Shown here in pieces: positions 25,919-30,835 of a DNA stretch of 64,000 nt. The notes beneath the pieces are model-generated. The model saw nothing but the letters and a program-made list of their open reading frames with translations, was not told where the DNA came from and searched no databases. The position numbers and the translations under genes were made by a program. The first letter of the stretch is position 1. Every line of letters begins with the position of its first letter. This DNA comes from Candidatus Marinacidobacterales bacterium (GTDB taxonomy: Bacteria; Acidobacteriota; Vicinamibacteria; Marinacidobacterales; DATDRI01): positions 1,600,001 to 1,664,000 of the forward strand of contig OZ244742.1 of the NCBI GenBank assembly GCA_965219415.1. The letters run 5' to 3'.

Positions 25919-26566
25919 ATGCTAACCCAAACGATCCTCGCATCGTTGTCCGCGGCTGCATTGGTCCTGGTTCCGGGTGAGCCTCCCGAACGAGGCTTCG
26001 AGAACGGTGTGTTCACATCGGAGCGGCTCCCCCGAATTCGGATGAGGGTAGACCCGGCTTTCGCATACATCGGAAATGTCACCTTCGAGCTCAAGAACAT
26101 TGCTCTGGTCGATCGACACGTATTCGTCGACGCTGACGGTGAGCGCATTAACCGAATGATCGTGCTCCAGTTCGAGGGTTTCCTCGATGACAATGACCAT
26201 ACGTACGTCTGGGACATCACCAACCCGATCTCTCTCGGAGAACATGAGTACAAACACAACACGTTCTTCTTCGACACCTCCAAGGCCATGGAGGAAAATC
26301 CCGGCGCCGAGACGGACCACACGGTGGACTTTCTCGAACGGGAAGGGTACCAGTTAGCGAGCGAGCAAATGGTTTCACGTTTCGCCCGAGTCGTCGATGC
26401 TGCACGACGCCACGAGCTAATCATCTTCTATCACGAAAACGTCCGGGACTCGGGACATTCTCTCGGCGAAATCTCCGAGGATGGCGGGGTCCTACCTCAA
26501 CACGCCGCTATCGCCGAGGCTTTGACCGAACGGTCTCTCAGCAGCCTTTCCGTGTTAGACGACTAA
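25919..26566 (+). CDS. Hypothetical secreted protein
   Basis: Signal peptide from ATG 25919 (MLTQTILASLSAAALVL); globular composition, QFEGFL and ELIIFYHE. Confidence 0.7.
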   Translation: MLTQTILASLSAAALVLVPGEPPERGFENGVFTSERLPRIRMRVDPAFAYIGNVTFELKNIALVDRHVFVDADGERINRMIVLQFEGFLDDNDHTYVWDITNPISLGEHEYKHNTFFFDTSKAMEENPGAETDHTVDFLEREGYQLASEQMVSRFARVVDAARRHELIIFYHENVRDSGHSLGEISEDGGVLPQHAAIAEALTERSLSSLSVLDD

Positions 26567-26718
26567 GCCCCCGACAGGCTAGCCGCTCAATGGGTTCGTT
26601 CGCTCCGCCGTCGAAGCCAAGCGTCTGATCTCAATCCGACGATCCCAGAGACGCCGCCGGGTAAAAGGATGCAATTCTTACACTCCTAGCAAGAATGGGA
26701 ACGCGGTTCCAACGCCCT

Positions 26719-26901
26719 CCGGGCCCGAAGGGGCTGAAACTCCGCGCCGCAGCTTGCCGGTAACCAAACCATTCGGATAGGCGCCTAAACCTCGCGGATA
26801 GCCTGTCATCATTGAAGCAAAAGGTGCCGCCATCGCTGGACACCGTAAGCTGCCACACTTCAACGCTTAGCGCCTTCCCACCACGGCGCTTGCTGACCCG
26901 G
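26719..26901 (+). ncRNA. Candidate rod-like structured RNA or leader (unclassified)
   Basis: Nested complementary segments 26727-26737/26867-26877 and 26749-26761/26842-26853 flanking an 11x13-nt internal loop; G-U pairs favour the + strand. Confidence 0.35.
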
Positions 26902-26962
26902 CCCCTTGGCACGGACGTTGCACAACTTCGCAGTGGAAACTATCGACGGAAGGGGTCTTGCC

Positions 26963-27223
26963 ATGCACCAAGGACGGACGCTCCCACCTGCGCAACAACT
27001 CCCCTGTCCGAACTGTTTGAGCTACGCCCTCGAGTTCAAATCACGCTCCGTTCCCGGTTACTCGGAAAGTGTCCGCGTGGCTCGATGCGAAGGCTGCGGC
27101 TACCCCCTGCTGTTCGACGGTCCACTCGAACAGCGCATGAGAAGGGCGAGAGTCTCTGGAAATGGGCCGCTGCCCTCTCTGCGGTTCCCCAGACACGAAG
27201 CCGGGCGTTTTTTCTCAAGCTAG
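26963..27223 (+). CDS. Small Zn-ribbon protein (CPNC...CEGC)
   Basis: GGAAGGGG upstream of ATG 26963; two CxxC pairs; followed by a GC hairpin. Confidence 0.5.
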   Translation: MHQGRTLPPAQQLPCPNCLSYALEFKSRSVPGYSESVRVARCEGCGYPLLFDGPLEQRMRRARVSGNGPLPSLRFPRHEAGRFFSS

Positions 27224-27286
27224 GTCGCAACAATCTCTCCTGTTAGGTCAGTGCCACACCTGCCGACGGCAGTTTGCTCCGGGGAC

Positions 27287-27322
27287 GGCGGCCTAGCTCG
27301 GGCCGCCTGCCGACTTCTCTTA
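27287..27322 (+). terminator. Possible intrinsic terminator
   Basis: GGCGGCC-TAGCTCG-GGCCGCC hairpin followed by a weak pyrimidine tract. Confidence 0.35.
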
Positions 27323-27351
27323 AAACACACCAACCTTCGGCGATTATCCAC

Positions 27352-27380
27352 TTTACACAACCAAGCAAAGGGTATATCAT
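27352..27380 (+). promoter_or_regulatory. Inward sigma70-like promoter in the left TIR (transposase promoter)
   Basis: TTTACA (27352-57), N17, TATCAT (27375-80). Confidence 0.6.
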
Positions 27381-27541
27381 GACCTCATGAAATCAGGAAC
27401 GCCTTTTTTGTCAACGGCTTCCACAGCTTTGTCTAGCTCTTTCTTGAGGCGTTTTCCGAATACCTTTTCTGCTAACTCTGCGTCCGTCATTTGGGTCGCG
27501 GGCTTGCCTTTTCTCTTCTCTTTCTTAGGGGTTTGACTCAT
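27377..27541 (-). CDS. Small basic protein (54 aa) inside IS1595, antisense and head-to-head with the transposase
   Basis: MSQTPKKEKRKGKPATQMTDAELAEKVFGKRLKKELDKAVEAVDKKGVPDFMRS; AAGGAG 9 nt upstream of the ATG. Confidence 0.6.
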   Translation of the reverse strand: MSQTPKKEKRKGKPATQMTDAELAEKVFGKRLKKELDKAVEAVDKKGVPDFMRS

Positions 27542-28424
27542 GGACATCATCTCCTTGTTTGATCGATTCCGTAATGACGACGTATGCAGAAAGCATCTTG
27601 AGAGTTTGCGCTGGCCTGGGGGCGTCGCATGTACCCGCTGCGGAGACATGGCAGTGACTCCGATTAAGAGGCGAGGTCAATGGGACTGCCAAGGGTGTGG
27701 ATACCACTTCAGTGTCAAGTCCGGGACCGTCATGCACGATTCCCATCTTCCCTTGCGTAAGTGGTTTGCTGCCACCTATCTGATGTGCGAATCGAAGAAG
27801 GGGATGTCCGCTCTCCAACTCAAGCGCACTCTCAATGTATCGTACAAAACGGCGTGGTATCTGTGTCACCGCATCCGCGAAGCGATGGGTAACGACAAGT
27901 TCGAAGGCCCAACGCTCTTCGGTGTCGTCGAGGTCGATGAGACCCTGGTCGGCGGGCGTAAGCGTGGCCGTGGCAAAGGCTACCGGGGCAACAAGACTTG
28001 GGTCGCGGGAGCCATCCAGCGCGGCGGTCAAGTCCATCTCGCCCGTATCCCTAACATCAGAAAGCATACCCTCCACAAGTTCGTCGCCAGCACTATCCGG
28101 GACGAGGCCGAGGCCATCTACACGGACGAGCTTCGGTCCTACATCGGCATTGAAGACGACGACACCATCCACCGGACGGTCAACCACTCGGCTGAAGAGT
28201 GGGTTGTCGGAGACGTTCACACCAACAGCATCGAGGGCGTCTGGAGCCTGTTCAAGCGGTCCATCATGGGGGCGTTCCACAAGGTCAGCACCAAGCACCT
28301 CGACCGCTACCTCGAAGAGCTGGAGTGGCGGTTCAACAACCGAAACAACCCGCACATCTTCAACGACACCCTGTACCGGATCCTGACCGCAGACCCTCTC
28401 ACCTATCAGAATCTCGTGGCATGA
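27540..28424 (+). CDS. IS1595-family DDE transposase
   Basis: LRWPGG, CTRC...CQGC Zn ribbon, HTH (SALQLKRTLNVSYKTAW), VEVDET, YTDE, VNHS, HTNSIEGVWS, YLEELEWRFN. Confidence 0.95.
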   Translation: MDIISLFDRFRNDDVCRKHLESLRWPGGVACTRCGDMAVTPIKRRGQWDCQGCGYHFSVKSGTVMHDSHLPLRKWFAATYLMCESKKGMSALQLKRTLNVSYKTAWYLCHRIREAMGNDKFEGPTLFGVVEVDETLVGGRKRGRGKGYRGNKTWVAGAIQRGGQVHLARIPNIRKHTLHKFVASTIRDEAEAIYTDELRSYIGIEDDDTIHRTVNHSAEEWVVGDVHTNSIEGVWSLFKRSIMGAFHKVSTKHLDRYLEELEWRFNNRNNPHIFNDTLYRILTADPLTYQNLVA

Positions 28425-28431
28425 CATTATA

Positions 28432-28616
28432 GAATTCCACGCTCTCGCTCATACCAACAGAATTTAGAAGTCAAAACGTCCTTCTTGGTATGCCTTTATA
28501 AGGCGTCGTATGAATTGAAGCGTAAAAACCTACGCGGAACCTACGCGGAACATCCTGCGACGGATTTGCCATCAACCAGAGCATCAGACGCTCTATGAGG
28601 GGATACACGTGAATTC
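28432..28616. ncRNA. Candidate multi-hairpin RNA or miniature element inside IS1595
   Basis: Ends pair (GAATTCCACG/CGTGAATTC; CTCATA/TATGAG); five internal hairpins; 11-bp tandem CCTACGCGGAA. Confidence 0.4.
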
Positions 28617-29030
28617 CTAATCCTTTAGAACCCAGTTTGCTAAACTCACGACCCACTCAGTGGCGAGCACCGAAAAATAGACGCCTAAAATACCAGCAAG
28701 AATGGTTGTAACCATAATCATCGCCAGGCCAGCAACGTAACTCCGCGTAGGCTGATCCTTGTAAACTGTGACCCATGCTTGGAAGTCTGATCGAATCCCA
28801 GCCTTGATGGCTTTAAAGTCAAATCGGCGAACCAGCCATTCCTTCGTTCTCTCCACCGCGAAGATGAAAAGAAGTGTACCGCCTGAGAACAGAAAGAAGT
28901 CTCCTAATCGATCACTCATACCTAACCACCGCTTCCAAGTTGTCCCGTCATCGATCCAGCCGGGCAATTTCCAAAGGATGAGGAGAACGACACCGAACGG
29001 GCCAGCCCAAAAGCGCTTACGCTTACGCAT
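28617..29030 (-). CDS. IS passenger: hypothetical membrane protein (137 aa)
   Basis: About three hydrophobic segments, Trp-rich, lower GC than the host; convergent with the transposase. Confidence 0.6.
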   Translation of the reverse strand: MRKRKRFWAGPFGVVLLILWKLPGWIDDGTTWKRWLGMSDRLGDFFLFSGGTLLFIFAVERTKEWLVRRFDFKAIKAGIRSDFQAWVTVYKDQPTRSYVAGLAMIMVTTILAGILGVYFSVLATEWVVSLANWVLKD

Positions 29031-29036
29031 CCGCGC

Positions 29037-29066
29037 ATGCTATTCTCTCCTCAATGGTTGTGTCAA
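29037..29066 (-). promoter_or_regulatory. Inward sigma70-like promoter in the right TIR, probably giving a leaderless passenger mRNA
   Basis: TTGACA (29066-61), N18, TAGCAT (29042-37), 6 nt, then ATG 29030. Confidence 0.6.
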
Positions 29067-29142
29067 GTGGATAATTGCCCAACCTTCGGCACCGCCCTGT
29101 CCGACAGTCAGTGTGTCGCTTGCCTCGCAGGGACTTTCGACT

Positions 29143-29330
29143 ATGATTCCCCGATGCCGACCCTCACCCAATTGCTCGAACGAGGCAAGGACGACGTTAT
29201 CGCAATGGGGGCCCCTGGCCGCCAGCCGCACACCTATGCGGATTTGCGTCGTCACGTAACGGAGGGCTTCACCGAGGGTTGGTTCCGGAGCGGGATCAGG
29301 GCGTCATCGACGACGCGGTTCTCGCTATGA
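29143..29330 (+). pseudogene. Heavily deleted AMP-forming acyl-CoA ligase remnant (oxalate-CoA ligase-like)
   Basis: N-terminal GAPGRQPHTYADLRRHV fused directly to a C-terminal FTEGWFRSG(DQ)GVIDDA motif. Confidence 0.55.
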
Positions 29331-29362
29331 CGAGACTGCGGGCTCGCACCGCTGGGTGAAAC

Positions 29363-30835
29363 GTGTCGGGAGAAAAGAACAAAGATCTCGAGGACTTGGA
29401 GCTCCCTCGCACCAGTCCGGGCAATCTCTTAAGGTTGTTTGGCCCGGGCATGATCTTGATGATGACCGGTGTTGGGACGAGTCACATGGTGACCGCCCCG
29501 GTAGCCGGGGGCCGCTTCGGCTATGCCCTACTCTGGTGCATTCCCGTCGCCTACATTTTCAAATACTACGGGTTCGAGATGGCCTTCCGCTTCACGCACG
29601 CCACGGGAAGGAGCATGCTCGATGCCTATGCCACCGCCTGGAAACGGTGGCCCTTGTGGTACGTGCTGGTCACGACATTGATTCAATGCGTCGTCGGGCA
29701 AGCGGGGCGATTGGTTGCCGCATCGGCGGTGGTCTACTACTTCCTTGCTGAATATGTCGGCGTCAACGTTCCGATCCCGCGTCTCGGATTGACGTTAGGC
29801 CTGGTCGCGGTCGGAATTATTCTACGTGGCCGATACGAAGTGGTCGAAGTCGCCGCCAAGATTGCGGCTGGCGTTCTCATGGTATCGAGCTTGGGCATCT
29901 ATCTCGTCGAGCCTGCTCCTTTGTCCTCGATGAGTCACTTCTTCTTGCTCGACACTCCGGAGGGATCCTGGCTCGTCATCGCCGCGTTTCTAGGACTTCT
30001 ACCCACCGGAATCGACGTCTCCTTGCAAGCATCGGAGTGGGGAAAAGCAAAGAAGGCGGGTATGGGTGGAATCCGGGAGCGACTCGAGCAGCTCGGTCTC
30101 GCGCCCACGTTCGATCCTTTTGCATCACGCAAGGGAGATTTGACCGTCGACACTTCGAAGCTATCGCCTCACACGCGGGCGTACTGCCGTCGCTGGTTCA
30201 AGATCGGATTATGGGATTTCCGGCTGGGTCACGTGATTTCGTTCCTCACCGCCTGCGTGTTCCTCTTGCTGGCGGCAGTATGGCTCTATCCGAGTCCGGT
30301 CGAGGGCGCTGCGGTGATGGGAGAGATTGCGAAGATCTTCACCTTGAGCGTCGGGCCGTGGATGATGATCGTATTCCTAACTGGCGCTTTCGCCGCAACC
30401 TATTCGACCGCTTTCAACTATTTCGATGGCTGGCCGCGCGTCGTGGCCGCGTGCTGTCGGAACTTGTTCAAGCCCACGGCATCACTAAAGGGAATCGCGA
30501 AGGAGGATCTTACGCCCGAGCATCGAAGCAAGTGGTACTCCGAGTACAACATCTACCGCATGACGATGCTCTTCTCTCTGGTGGCCTCGGTCTCCATCAT
30601 CGCCGGCGCGCCAAAACCGGTGTGGTTAGTCCTAGTCGCTTCGGCGCTGGCGTTTTTCATCGCCCCAGTGGTCTTCTATCTGAATCTCTACTATTGTTTC
30701 TCCGTGATCCCACGAGACGATAAGGAGTTCTATCCCTCCCGTTTTGCGACGTGGTTCAGCTGGGCCAGCCTGGCGATATTCACAGGCATGACCGCGCTAC
30801 TGATACTGGCCCGCGTTCTTAAGGTCGAGTTTTAG
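29363..30835 (+). CDS. Nramp-like / APC-fold divalent metal transporter family protein
   Basis: FGPGMILMMTGVGTSH, GGRFGYALLW, RFTHATGRS, AATYST..FDGWPR; about 11 TMs. Confidence 0.8.
   Translation: MSGEKNKDLEDLELPRTSPGNLLRLFGPGMILMMTGVGTSHMVTAPVAGGRFGYALLWCIPVAYIFKYYGFEMAFRFTHATGRSMLDAYATAWKRWPLWYVLVTTLIQCVVGQAGRLVAASAVVYYFLAEYVGVNVPIPRLGLTLGLVAVGIILRGRYEVVEVAAKIAAGVLMVSSLGIYLVEPAPLSSMSHFFLLDTPEGSWLVIAAFLGLLPTGIDVSLQASEWGKAKKAGMGGIRERLEQLGLAPTFDPFASRKGDLTVDTSKLSPHTRAYCRRWFKIGLWDFRLGHVISFLTACVFLLLAAVWLYPSPVEGAAVMGEIAKIFTLSVGPWMMIVFLTGAFAATYSTAFNYFDGWPRVVAACCRNLFKPTASLKGIAKEDLTPEHRSKWYSEYNIYRMTMLFSLVASVSIIAGAPKPVWLVLVASALAFFIAPVVFYLNLYYCFSVIPRDDKEFYPSRFATWFSWASLAIFTGMTALLILARVLKVEF

What the first reader, a model, noticed from the sequence alone, without database searches (positions are those of the whole stretch)
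27331..29087. Four-part IS1595 element: transposase, antisense microprotein, structured RNA-like segment and membrane passenger
Seen: exact boundaries (24-bp TIRs, CAACCTTC TSD), an intact transposase, and both TIRs supplying -35 boxes for inward convergent promoters. All remaining space is filled by a 54-aa antisense ORF, a ~185-nt multi-hairpin segment and a 137-aa membrane ORF. Known: IS1595 members can carry passengers, but I know of no RNA or antisense-protein component for them. Inference: a compact self-regulating or addiction/defence-carrying transposon. This is the best candidate for an undescribed system here.
Basis: partly seen in the sequence, partly recalled or inferred. Interest (0 to 1): 0.75.

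Follow-up and report, generated by a model that had tools for sequence, protein, structure and literature searches.

The report
IS1595 transposon with conserved small gene
This is a recently mobile jumping gene of the known IS1595 family. Besides its transposase it carries a small, previously undescribed protein gene kept in all its close relatives, and a swappable cargo slot that here holds an orphan membrane protein.

Summary
The element is real and exactly bounded: window 27339-29079 (1741 bp), 24-nt inverted ends (22 of 24 matching) and an 8-bp target duplication. A contig in another public run carries the empty site, skipping exactly 1749 bp.

The transposase is an intact IS1595-family enzyme.

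The 54-aa ORF (orfS) is a real gene. It is under purifying selection. It lies head-to-head with the transposase in 31 of 31 genome loci and 5 of 6 metagenome loci. Its transposases form one clade spread across phyla.

The 137-aa membrane ORF is an orphan. It sits in a variable cargo slot: cores 91-95% identical carry unrelated cargo, and one relative carries a DUF4258/MqsA toxin-antitoxin pair.

Both ends carry a -35/-10-like promoter followed 5-9 nt later by a start codon. This pattern recurs in relatives and implies leaderless mRNAs for the cargo and for an upstream ORF in front of the transposase.

The 185-nt "structured RNA" is not supported: z -2.4 and -1.7, no Rfam match, not conserved.

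Verdict: a new variant of a known kind, an IS1595 element with passenger genes. Functions of orfS and the cargo are inferred only; no RNA data were available.

The parts
27331..27338 (.). Left copy of the 8-bp target-site duplication CAACCTTC
   Evidence: direct repeat D12. The empty-site joint 27329->29079 skips 1749 letters in runs X7 and X4.
27339..27362 (+). Left terminal inverted repeat (IRL). It contains the -35-like hexamer TTTACA at 27352-27357.
   Evidence: (I1). Relatives keep CTTGAC-type hexamers at the same place in their TIRs.
27352..27380 (+). Inward promoter-like site P(IRL): TTTACA, 17 nt, TATCAT. The -10 overlaps the orfS stop codon.
   Evidence: 10 of 12. An equivalent pair is found in 19 of 19 related element types. 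Pattern match only; no RNA data.
27387..27536 (+). Upstream ORF (49 codons). Its ATG lies 6 nt after the -10. It is in frame with the transposase and stops (TGA) one codon before the transposase ATG. It lies fully antisense to orfS, and the third codon positions of the two frames coincide.
   Evidence: A start codon 5-7 nt after the -10 occurs in 19 of 19 types. An ORF of 47-60 codons reaching 3-15 nt from the tnp ATG occurs in 18 of 19. The T that makes the TGA is kept in 14 of 17 unique sequences although orfS codon 2 changes amino acid. Translation is inferred, not shown.
27377..27541 (-). orfS: a 54-aa basic small protein. It is divergent from the transposase (ATGs overlap by 2 nt) and has AAGGAG 9 nt upstream of its ATG.
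   Evidence: Seven protein clusters in the database. FGKR and K34 are invariant. Variability by codon position is 2 < 1 < 3, and pN/pS is 0.33. No Pfam, NCBIfam, PHROGs, PADLOC or PDB match. The AF2 model shows a disordered N-terminal tail plus one helix at residues 20-46, mean pLDDT 66.
27540..28424 (+). Transposase, 294 aa: N-terminal zinc ribbon plus IS1595-type DDE domain
   Evidence: D133, D196, E232 and K239 are invariant in 16 clade members. Naming these residues as the catalytic motif is recalled, not tested.
28425..28616 (.). Spacer between the convergent transposase and cargo genes. It contains an exact 11-nt tandem duplication at 28527-28548 that differs in other runs.
   Evidence: (D15). 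The fold z-scores are weak, there is no Rfam family and no terminator-like site, and the segment is not conserved in relatives.
28617..29030 (-). orfM: 137-aa cargo ORF with three hydrophobic segments (about 7-24, 43-59 and 97-125). Its ATG lies 50 nt from the right end and 6 nt after the -10.
   Evidence: It is an orphan: only itself and one near-identical protein carrying in-frame indels, and only itself in 1.84 billion representatives. One decayed relative (28-30% identity over about 90 residues) lies in a transposase-less element, L006.
29037..29066 (-). Inward promoter-like site P(IRR): TTGACA, 18 nt, TAGCAT, then 6 nt and the orfM ATG (predicted leaderless cargo mRNA)
   Evidence: 10 of 12. 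The same layout was read at 12 of 15 right ends of related elements.
29056..29079 (-). Right terminal inverted repeat (IRR)
29080..29087 (.). Right copy of the 8-bp target-site duplication

Best explanation
Window 27339-29079 is one recently mobile copy of an IS1595-family insertion sequence of the kind that carries passenger genes. It belongs to a distinct clade, spread across phyla, with a fixed three-part core and a variable slot.

Shown:
- A DDE transposase with a zinc ribbon.
- 24-nt TIRs and an 8-bp duplication.
- An empty-site allele in other samples.
- A small basic protein gene (orfS) that always lies head-to-head with this clade's transposase and is under purifying selection.
- A cargo region between the transposase stop and the right end whose content is exchanged between otherwise near-identical cores.

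Inferred from sequence patterns only:
- Each TIR supplies the -35 of an inward promoter, and a start codon lies 5-9 nt after the -10.
- The right end would therefore express whatever cargo is plugged in as a leaderless mRNA. Here that is the orphan 3-helix membrane protein orfM.
- The left end would make a leaderless mRNA that first translates a ~49-codon upstream ORF. That ORF ends one codon before the transposase ATG, so transposase synthesis would be coupled to it and kept low.
- Transposase bound to the TIRs would sit on both -35 boxes and repress both promoters.
- orfS is encoded on the opposite strand of the whole transposase leader. Its mRNA would be complementary to the leader, the ribosome-binding site and the start codon of the transposase message.

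My most likely reading is that orfS is the element's own transposition regulator. Its transcript would act as an antisense RNA, and its product (basic tail plus one helix) would bind either the ends or the transposase.

The 192-nt stretch between the convergent genes is a spacer, not an RNA gene.

The confidence given (0.7) is for the architecture. The regulator role of orfS alone I put at about 0.4.
For: Boundaries and mobility: (a contig in X7 bridges the empty site and skips 1749 letters; element-bearing pieces have depth 2.6-4.2 against 15.4 for the empty form). The element is single-copy in its own 8.05-Mb genome.

Family.

orfS is a real gene:
- Across 19 unique sequences, entropy by codon position is 0.79, 0.49 and 1.37. 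pN is 0.269 and pS 0.808 (ratio 0.33). The ratio is 0.47 for the shared-wobble antisense frame and at least 1.04 for the other four frames.
- A Shine-Dalgarno-like AAGGAG or AGGGAG precedes the ATG in most types.
- Gene callers report seven protein clusters of it.

orfS is linked to the transposase:
- It is adjacent in 31 of 31 genome loci, with a 2-nt ATG overlap in 21 of 31 and the transposase broken in 2.
- It is adjacent in 5 of 6 metagenome loci; the sixth sits at a contig end.
- None of 23 loci with more distant IS1595 transposases (34-41% identity) listed has such an ORF.
- The 23 orfS-linked transposases form one clade (UFBoot 98, SH-aLRT 95) that mixes Acidobacteriota, Gemmatimonadota and Pseudomonadota.

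Variable cargo:
- Copy alignments define seven further element types of 1757-2119 bp, and the TIR match delimits L009 at 2270 bp. Cargo regions do not align between types.
- Transposases 91-95% identical carry unrelated cargo proteins.
- Of 22 cargo proteins scanned against Pfam, only the L039 pair passes a curated cut-off: DUF4258 at 2.2e-5 and MqsA antitoxin at 2.2e-8.

Promoter and start-codon layout.

Selection on the stop that closes the upstream ORF: the third base of orfS codon 2 is T in 14 of 17 unique sequences, although the encoded residue varies among S, V, T, N, A and G. Background T at third positions is 137 of 854.
Against: - No transcript, start site or protein has been seen. 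No RNA run holds the stretch, so every expression statement rests on consensus patterns.
- No sigma-70-like promoter for orfS is conserved within 160 nt upstream of it, so its transcription source is unknown.
- The upstream ORF shares third codon positions with orfS. Its openness therefore follows largely from orfS composition: T before His/Gln codons is not depleted, 3 of 26 against 16% background. Only its start and stop positions argue for translation.
- orfS has no recognisable DNA-binding or other domain, and its model is of modest confidence (pLDDT 66).
- orfM could be a non-functional ORF. It has no intact homologue anywhere, and its only relative is decayed.
- The many related MAGs have similar record names and may come from few projects, so the loci are not fully independent samples.
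Confidence: 0.7

Rival explanations
1. orfS and orfM form a two-gene addiction or defence module, with a small membrane toxin or effector and a small basic partner. The transposon carries the pair and the transposase is only the vehicle.
For: Both genes lie on the same strand. In the transposase-less element L006 the orfM-like and orfS-like ORFs are directly adjacent inside TIRs with an 8-bp duplication. A relative carries a true toxin-antitoxin pair in the cargo slot. Most first cargo ORFs have hydrophobic N-terminal segments.
Against: orfS stays constant while the cargo is replaced by unrelated proteins between cores 91-95% identical. It therefore cannot be a specific partner of orfM. The L006 adjacency is what any internal deletion of the transposase would leave, and its orfM-like gene needs two frame changes to be read. 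No PADLOC or Pfam family matches either protein.
Confidence: 0.1
2. orfS is not translated. The conserved stretch is the transposase leader with its upstream ORF or an RNA element, and the orfS frame is a by-product on the other strand.
For: The upstream ORF has a conserved start 5-7 nt after the -10 in 19 of 19 types and a selected stop next to the transposase ATG. The two frames share third positions, so each mimics coding in the other (ratio 0.47 for that frame).
Against: Position 2 of the orfS codons is the least variable (0.49 against 0.79 for position 1). That is the order expected if orfS is the coding frame and the reverse of what the upstream ORF alone would give. orfS also has its own Shine-Dalgarno-like sequence and ATG, and its substitutions are conservative (K/R, V/I/L, D/E) across the alignment.
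Confidence: 0.1
3. The 28425-28616 segment is a functional structured RNA (regulatory RNA, ribozyme or bidirectional terminator) belonging to the element.
For: The plus-strand fold has z = -2.41, with 2 of 200 shuffles folding as well. It lies between two convergent genes, where a terminator would be useful.
Against: There is no Rfam match at E <= 1 and no terminator-like site there. The minus strand gives z = -1.66. Related elements have no alignable counterpart, and in several the cargo ORF fills or overlaps this space. The segment varies between runs at 28530-28540.
Confidence: 0.05

Closest known systems
IS1595 family insertion sequences with passenger genes (ISfinder groups such as ISNwi1 and ISPna2 and their '+' forms). 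Group names are confirmed in passages of PMC8101967. The '+' forms, size ranges and end consensus are recalled from ISfinder and Siguier et al. 2009, which I could not read.
   Same: DDE_Tnp_IS1595 domain plus N-terminal zinc ribbon, TIRs starting GG, an 8-bp duplication, and extra genes downstream of the transposase. The window's end GGCGATTAT fits the recalled ISNwi1 end consensus.
   Different: PMC8101967 describes the family as having a single transposase gene. A conserved divergent small protein gene, promoter plus start-codon pairs at both ends, and an in-frame upstream ORF were not mentioned in anything I could find. Subgroup membership could not be tested because no ISfinder reference sequences were available.
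IS1 InsA, a small element-encoded protein that binds the inverted repeats and represses the transposase promoter (recalled; no paper read)
   Same: It works like my preferred reading of orfS: a small basic protein encoded next to IRL of a related IS family, with the promoter partly inside the IR.
   Different: InsA is co-directional with the transposase frame, forms the N-terminus of the fusion transposase and has a zinc finger and a helix-turn-helix. orfS is divergent and stands alone (the 4 'longer' hits are miscalls or junction fusions). It has no recognisable DNA-binding domain.
IS10/Tn10 RNA-OUT antisense control of transposase translation (recalled; no paper read)
   Same: A transcript from the opposite strand would cover the 5' end, ribosome-binding site and start codon of the transposase mRNA.
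   Different: Here the antisense transcript would also encode a conserved protein. Its existence and its promoter are not shown.
Toxin-antitoxin pairs as integral cargo of Tn3-family transposons (PMC7157771; title and start of the abstract seen in the search listing only)
   Same: One clade member (L039) carries a DUF4258 / MqsA-type pair in the cargo slot.
   Different: A different transposon family. In the window itself the cargo is an orphan membrane protein, not a recognisable toxin-antitoxin pair.

Membership tests
IS1595 family of insertion sequences | Transposase with the DDE_Tnp_IS1595 catalytic domain | tested here: met
   Pfam PF12762 at 2.4e-36, 125.5 bits against a cut-off of 27. 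NCBIfam NF033547 at 1.6e-63.
IS1595 family of insertion sequences | N-terminal zinc-ribbon domain (present in all groups except IS1016, per PMC8101967) | tested here: met
   Pfam PF12760 at 1.2e-13. C31, C34, C50 and C53 are invariant in 16 relatives.
IS1595 family of insertion sequences | Terminal inverted repeats and 8-bp target duplication | tested here: met
   The empty site skips 1741 + 8 letters. The related element L006 has the 8-bp duplication TTTTCATA.
IS1595 family of insertion sequences | Single transposase gene as the only coding content | tested here: not met
   There is one transposase gene, but also orfS (conserved) and a cargo ORF. This fits the recalled 'with passenger genes' forms rather than the plain form.
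ISNwi1 group of the IS1595 family | Group-specific end sequence, catalytic motif and clustering with ISfinder reference transposases | not testable with these tools
   No ISfinder references are held. The fit of GGCGATTAT to the group's end consensus rests on my recollection. In the plasmid collection, 475 records match and all are below 60% identity, named only 'IS1595 family transposase'.
Type II toxin-antitoxin module (for orfM with orfS) | Adjacent co-transcribed pair with recognisable toxin and antitoxin domains | tested here: not met
   In the window the two genes are separated by the transposase gene. Neither matches any Pfam or PADLOC family. Only the cargo of relative L039 meets this test.
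Known structured RNA families (for 28425-28616) | Match to a curated covariance model, or conserved structure | tested here: not met
   0 Rfam matches at E <= 1 over 27000-29400. The segment cannot be aligned in relatives.
Antisense-RNA-controlled IS (IS10 type) | An antisense transcript overlapping the transposase 5' end | not testable with these tools
   No run on record as RNA holds the stretch. No conserved promoter is found upstream of orfS.

The most novel reading that the evidence does not exclude
This clade of IS1595 elements may be a minimal cargo-exchanging transposon platform with a dual-coding control region. One ~160-nt stretch next to IRL would encode, on opposite strands with coinciding third codon positions, two things: a leaderless upstream ORF that gates transposase translation, and a conserved small protein (orfS) whose mRNA is the antisense partner of the transposase leader. 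The right end would provide a universal leaderless expression socket (TIR-embedded -35, a -10, then ATG). Unrelated membrane-anchored proteins or toxin-antitoxin pairs are swapped into it, so the transposase bound at its own ends would co-regulate its cargo.
Probability: 0.3. Interest if true: 0.65.

Novelty: new variant of a known kind. Interest (0 to 1): 0.45.

Why it matters
IS1595 elements are usually described as single-gene insertion sequences, some with passengers. Here a whole clade, spread through at least three phyla, keeps a second, undescribed small protein gene wired into the transposase control region, and it shuffles its cargo at a fixed expression site.

If orfS proves to be a transposition regulator, it would add a new type of IS-encoded control factor and a natural example of a coding antisense RNA. 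The cargo socket would explain how very small transposons acquire and express diverse accessory genes. The cargo proteins themselves (mostly membrane-anchored, with no known families) are a pool of untested candidates for addiction, exclusion or defence functions.

For annotation, the practical point is that the 50-60-aa gene next to these transposases is real and should be called.

Tried and rejected
- RNA evidence: the look-up of sequencing runs listed 13 holders in 7 studies, none on record as RNA. No statement on expression is possible.
It was never accepted because the queue was full, so the question of whether orfS binds the transposase was not tested.
- orfM homology: the search for homologous proteins found 2 proteins, itself and a near-identical variant. 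phmmer over 1.84 billion representatives found only itself. Searches of 401 genomes of the phylum found 1, its own. Searches of 55 genomes of the order found 3, including its own, one decayed relative and one E = 0.0014 hit that I treat as chance. The Atlas gave a best score of 0.85, below the usable range.
- orfM structure: the single-sequence AF2 model has pLDDT 65 and pTM 0.32, which is too weak, so I did not run a fold search.
- orfS function: no hits in Pfam, NCBIfam above cut-offs, PHROGs, PADLOC or PDB sequences. The Atlas scored 0.88-0.89 to unnamed 47-51-aa clusters, which is a lead only. A search for fused forms gave 4 hits, all miscalled antisense ORFs or insertion-junction fusions.
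- Common ancestry of all cargo membrane proteins: an all-against-all BLASTP of 25 cargo proteins gave only a few significant pairs (L048-L052 8.7e-21, L062a-L067a 1.3e-14, L006b-WIN 4e-9, L062b-L067b 2.5e-7, L040-L048 2e-4). The N-terminal motif I thought I saw (PGxxDDxxxWxRW) is not significant. I dropped the idea that orfM is a conserved core gene.
- Promoter for orfS: none is conserved within 160 nt.
- Right ends of L039, L047, L053 and L025 could not be located, so their cargo limits are unknown.
- The L006-type element has only one further fragment in its genome. It is not a multiplied MITE.
- Literature: searches for IS1595 with passenger, for ISNwi1/ISPna2, for ISSod11/ISNha5/IS1016/ISH4, and for leaderless with insertion sequence found no description of such a small ORF. 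The key family papers (Siguier et al. 2009; the 2014 review tried by DOI) are not held, so prior description cannot be excluded.
- Earlier findings of this scan: nothing relevant.
Full report
THE OBSERVATION

- The element proper is 27339-29079 (1741 bp).
- Its ends are 24-nt inverted repeats that match at 22 of 24 positions (read; one search reports the pair as 28 nt at 89%, because it runs into the flanks).
- They are flanked by CAACCTTC on both sides. The exact direct repeat is 12 nt (27330-27341 and 29079-29090), so the cut points are ambiguous by a few bases.
- The element is single-copy in its own genome of 8.05 Mb in 3 contigs.

Independent proof of the boundaries came from laying contigs of four public runs on 26300-30100.
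- In run X7 one 6574-nt contig (depth 15.4) runs from 26300 to 27329 and continues at 29079. It skips exactly 1749 letters (1741 + 8), with 12 letters that fit either side.
- The element-bearing pieces in that run have depth 2.6-4.2.
- Run X4 has one contig with the same joint (depth 14), but only 18 letters on its shorter side.
- The insertion is therefore polymorphic in natural populations, which means recent movement.
- Only mechanical ORFs of 87 codons or fewer span the reconstructed empty site. An Nramp-family transporter gene starts 275 nt downstream. The insertion looks intergenic.

THE TRANSPOSASE

ORF 27540-28424 (294 aa) matches several curated models:
- Pfam DDE_Tnp_IS1595 (2.4e-36) and Zn_ribbon_IS1595 (1.2e-13);
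- NCBIfam IS1595 family transposase (1.6e-63).

In an alignment of 16 clade members the four zinc-ribbon cysteines and D133, D196, E232 and K239 are invariant. Reading the latter four as the catalytic motif rests on my recollection of the family. The gene is intact.

THE SMALL ORF IS A REAL, CONSERVED GENE

ORF 27377-27541 (minus strand, 54 aa; here orfS) is not antisense to the transposase coding sequence. It is divergent from it, and the two ATGs overlap by 2 nt.

A database search found seven protein clusters of 51-66 aa. A pattern scan of one genome per species then found 31 loci. These lie in MAGs labelled Acidobacteriota, Longimicrobiales, Gammaproteobacteria, Burkholderiales or simply 'bacterium'.

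Linkage to the transposase:
- In 31 of 31 loci an IS1595 transposase 58-82% identical to the window's lies head-to-head with the small ORF.
- The 2-nt ATG overlap is present in 21 of 31 loci. In 2 loci the transposase is broken.
- In the metagenome collection 5 of 6 loci show the same arrangement, and the sixth sits at a contig end.
- None of the 23 loci holding more distant IS1595 transposases from the same order (34-41% identity) has such an ORF.
- In a maximum-likelihood tree of 48 transposases, the 23 that are truly adjacent to orfS form one clade (UFBoot 98, SH-aLRT 95). The clade mixes phyla.
- Three further rows labelled 'orfS' by my locus-wide motif rule fall outside it. Two are unrelated second transposases in the same locus (L047_b, L057). 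One is a long-branch relative with an orfS-like neighbour (L073) that sits beside the clade.

Evidence that it codes for protein: across 19 unique sequences (of 34 collected), over 23 codons around the invariant FGKR motif:
- Variability by codon position is 0.79, 0.49 and 1.37 bits.
- Mean pN is 0.269 against pS of 0.808.
- The ratio is 0.33 in the orfS frame. It is 0.47 in the antisense frame that shares its third positions, and at least 1.04 in the other four frames.

A Shine-Dalgarno-like AAGGAG or AGGGAG lies 8-10 nt before the ATG in most types.

The protein has no match in Pfam, NCBIfam (above cut-offs), PHROGs, PADLOC or PDB sequences. The AlphaFold model from 22 sequences gives a disordered basic tail and one helix at residues 20-46, with mean pLDDT 66. 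No fused form exists: the 4 'longer' hits are miscalls or junction artefacts.

THE MEMBRANE ORF IS ONE OF MANY CARGOES

ORF 28617-29030 (137 aa; here orfM) has three hydrophobic segments and is an orphan.
- It matches only itself and one near-identical protein. That protein differs by an in-frame 21-residue duplication and a 3-residue deletion.
- It matches only itself among 1.84 billion representatives.
- It matches 1 of 401 genomes of the phylum, its own.
- In the order it has one real relative at 28-30% identity. This relative lies in locus L006.

L006 is an 833-bp element with related TIRs and its own 8-bp duplication (TTTTCATA). It has no transposase, and the orfM-like and orfS-like ORFs are adjacent in it. 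Its orfM-like gene needs two frame changes to be read, so it is decayed. The arrangement is what an internal deletion of the transposase would leave.

Copy-to-copy alignments within genomes and TIR matches defined eight further element types of 1757-2270 bp.
- Every one has a cargo region between the transposase stop and the right end, on the strand opposite to the transposase.
- These regions do not align between types.
- Transposases that are 91-95% identical (L041, L044, L048) carry unrelated cargo proteins.
- Most first cargo ORFs have a hydrophobic N-terminal segment.
- Of 22 cargo proteins scanned, only one pair passes a curated Pfam cut-off: DUF4258 plus an MqsA-type antitoxin in L039. 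None matches a PADLOC effector.

I first suspected a shared N-terminal motif among the membrane cargoes. BLASTP does not support it, and I dropped the idea.

PROMOTER-LIKE SITES AND START CODONS AT BOTH ENDS

The consensus scan finds exactly two sites inside the element. Both score 10 of 12, and both have the -35 inside a TIR and read inward:
- plus strand 27352-27380: TTTACA, 17 nt, TATCAT;
- minus strand 29066-29037: TTGACA, 18 nt, TAGCAT.

At the right end the orfM ATG follows the -10 by 6 nt. The same layout (a start codon 6-9 nt after the -10, about 50 nt from the end) was read at 12 of 15 right ends of related elements. Two ends (L062, L067) have a leader instead, and one (L072) is ambiguous. 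This predicts leaderless cargo mRNAs from a conserved 'socket'.

At the left end an ATG or GTG follows the -10 by 5-7 nt in 19 of 19 element types.
- In 18 of 19 it opens an ORF of 47-60 codons that ends 3-15 nt before the transposase ATG.
- In 17 of 19 it is in frame with the transposase. For three types the transposase ATG was not placed exactly.
- In the window this upstream ORF is 27387-27536, and it stops one codon before the transposase ATG.

The stop appears to be selected. The T that creates it is the third base of orfS codon 2. It is kept in 14 of 17 unique sequences while that codon changes among six amino acids, against a background of 137 T in 854 third positions.

The openness of the frame itself is not strong evidence, because it shares third positions with a Lys/Glu-rich gene. 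T before His/Gln codons is not depleted, at 3 of 26.

THE 'STRUCTURED RNA-LIKE SEGMENT'

The 192 nt between the two convergent genes give little support for a functional RNA.
- They fold with z = -2.41 (plus) and -1.66 (minus) relative to shuffles.
- They match no Rfam family at E <= 1.
- They contain no terminator-like site.
- They have no alignable counterpart in relatives. In several relatives the cargo ORF fills or overlaps this position.
- The segment holds an exact 11-nt tandem duplication that is replaced by other letters in runs X4 and X7.

I read it as spacer.

HOW IT MOST LIKELY WORKS

Shown:
- an intact IS1595-type transposase, with TIRs and an 8-bp duplication;
- recent mobility;
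- a conserved protein-coding orfS tied to this transposase clade;
- exchangeable cargo.

Inferred:
- The transposase binds TIRs that carry the -35 boxes of both inward promoters, so it would repress its own gene and the cargo together. Promoters partly inside IRL are a classical IS feature (recalled).
- The left mRNA starts at the upstream ORF's ATG, and transposase synthesis depends on re-initiation after its stop.
- orfS mRNA, whose promoter I could not find, would be complementary to the whole transposase leader, including its ribosome-binding site and start codon.
- The orfS protein, with a basic tail and one helix, acts on the ends or on the transposase.

I put about 0.7 on the architecture as described, about 0.4 on orfS being a transposition regulator, and about 0.3 on the full dual-coding, socket model. 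The function of orfM is unknown. A membrane-acting addiction, exclusion or defence role is possible but untested.

COMPARISON WITH WHAT IS KNOWN

Family membership in IS1595 is met on every testable criterion. [quoted passage not shown]

IS1595 members with passenger genes are a known kind (ISfinder classification and Siguier et al. 2009; recalled, not read). The window's end sequence fits my recollection of the ISNwi1 group consensus. I could not test subgroup membership.

What I could not find described is:
- the conserved divergent small gene;
- the paired promoter and start-codon layout;
- the in-frame upstream ORF.

The main family papers are not in the library, so prior description cannot be excluded.

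Functionally the nearest analogues are IS1 InsA and IS10 RNA-OUT (both recalled). For the L039 cargo, the nearest analogue is the toxin-antitoxin pairs of Tn3-family transposons (PMC7157771, search listing only).

VERDICT

This is a real, recently mobile IS1595 element. Its four-part interpretation is half right: the small ORF is a constant module, while the RNA segment is not a module and the membrane ORF is replaceable cargo. It is a new variant of a known kind, of moderate interest.

Noticed in passing
L039:2161-3068 (Acidobacteriota MAG contig, cargo slot of a related element): The cargo is a DUF4258 protein (2.2e-5) followed by an overlapping MqsA-type zinc-ribbon/HTH antitoxin (2.2e-8). 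This is a toxin-antitoxin pair carried by a small IS1595 element.
   Followed up: partly
L038:1934-7632 (= L009 plus L025; same contig, G439:C4): Two different members of the orfS clade (transposases 82% and 72% identical to the window's) lie 2.3 kb apart in the same orientation. ORFs that look by eye like a type I restriction-modification methylase C-terminus and a specificity subunit lie between them. No right end was found for the second element. It may be a composite, or an insertion into cargo.
   Followed up: no
window 28527-28548: An exact 11-nt tandem duplication (AACCTACGCGG twice) lies in the spacer. Contigs of runs X4 and X7 carry other letters at 28530-28540, so this stretch varies between copies of the element.
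   Followed up: partly
P0001 against window 28617-29030: The only other database copy of orfM differs by an in-frame 21-residue tandem duplication and a 3-residue deletion. Run X8 shows an in-frame 6-nt deletion at 29016. All three indels keep the reading frame.
   Followed up: no
window 29475-29601: Summed contig depth jumps to 195-356 in all four runs against about 8-30 beside it. The stretch lies inside the Nramp-family gene and is single-copy in the window's own genome. It is probably a conserved stretch shared by many organisms in those samples.
   Followed up: partly
G000:C3:4531934-4532041 (L078:1495-1617): The same genome holds a second, degenerate orfS-like ORF (40 aa, with FGKQ instead of FGKR; E 1.5e-7). 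It lies next to a different transposase gene and looks like a relic of another element's left end.
   Followed up: partly
L062:661-1405 and L067:2346-3045: Two elements from different phyla (Burkholderiales and Longimicrobiales MAGs) share a two-gene cargo: a 112-122-aa protein with paired CxxC motifs (1.3e-14 between them) and a 122-127-aa protein with two hydrophobic segments (2.5e-7). Here the cargo is expressed with a leader rather than from the leaderless start.
   Followed up: no
window 26812-27296: Just left of the insertion site, short ORFs contain paired CxxC motifs (for example 27162-27296 and 26906-27223). None matches Pfam. It is unclear whether these are genes.
   Followed up: no
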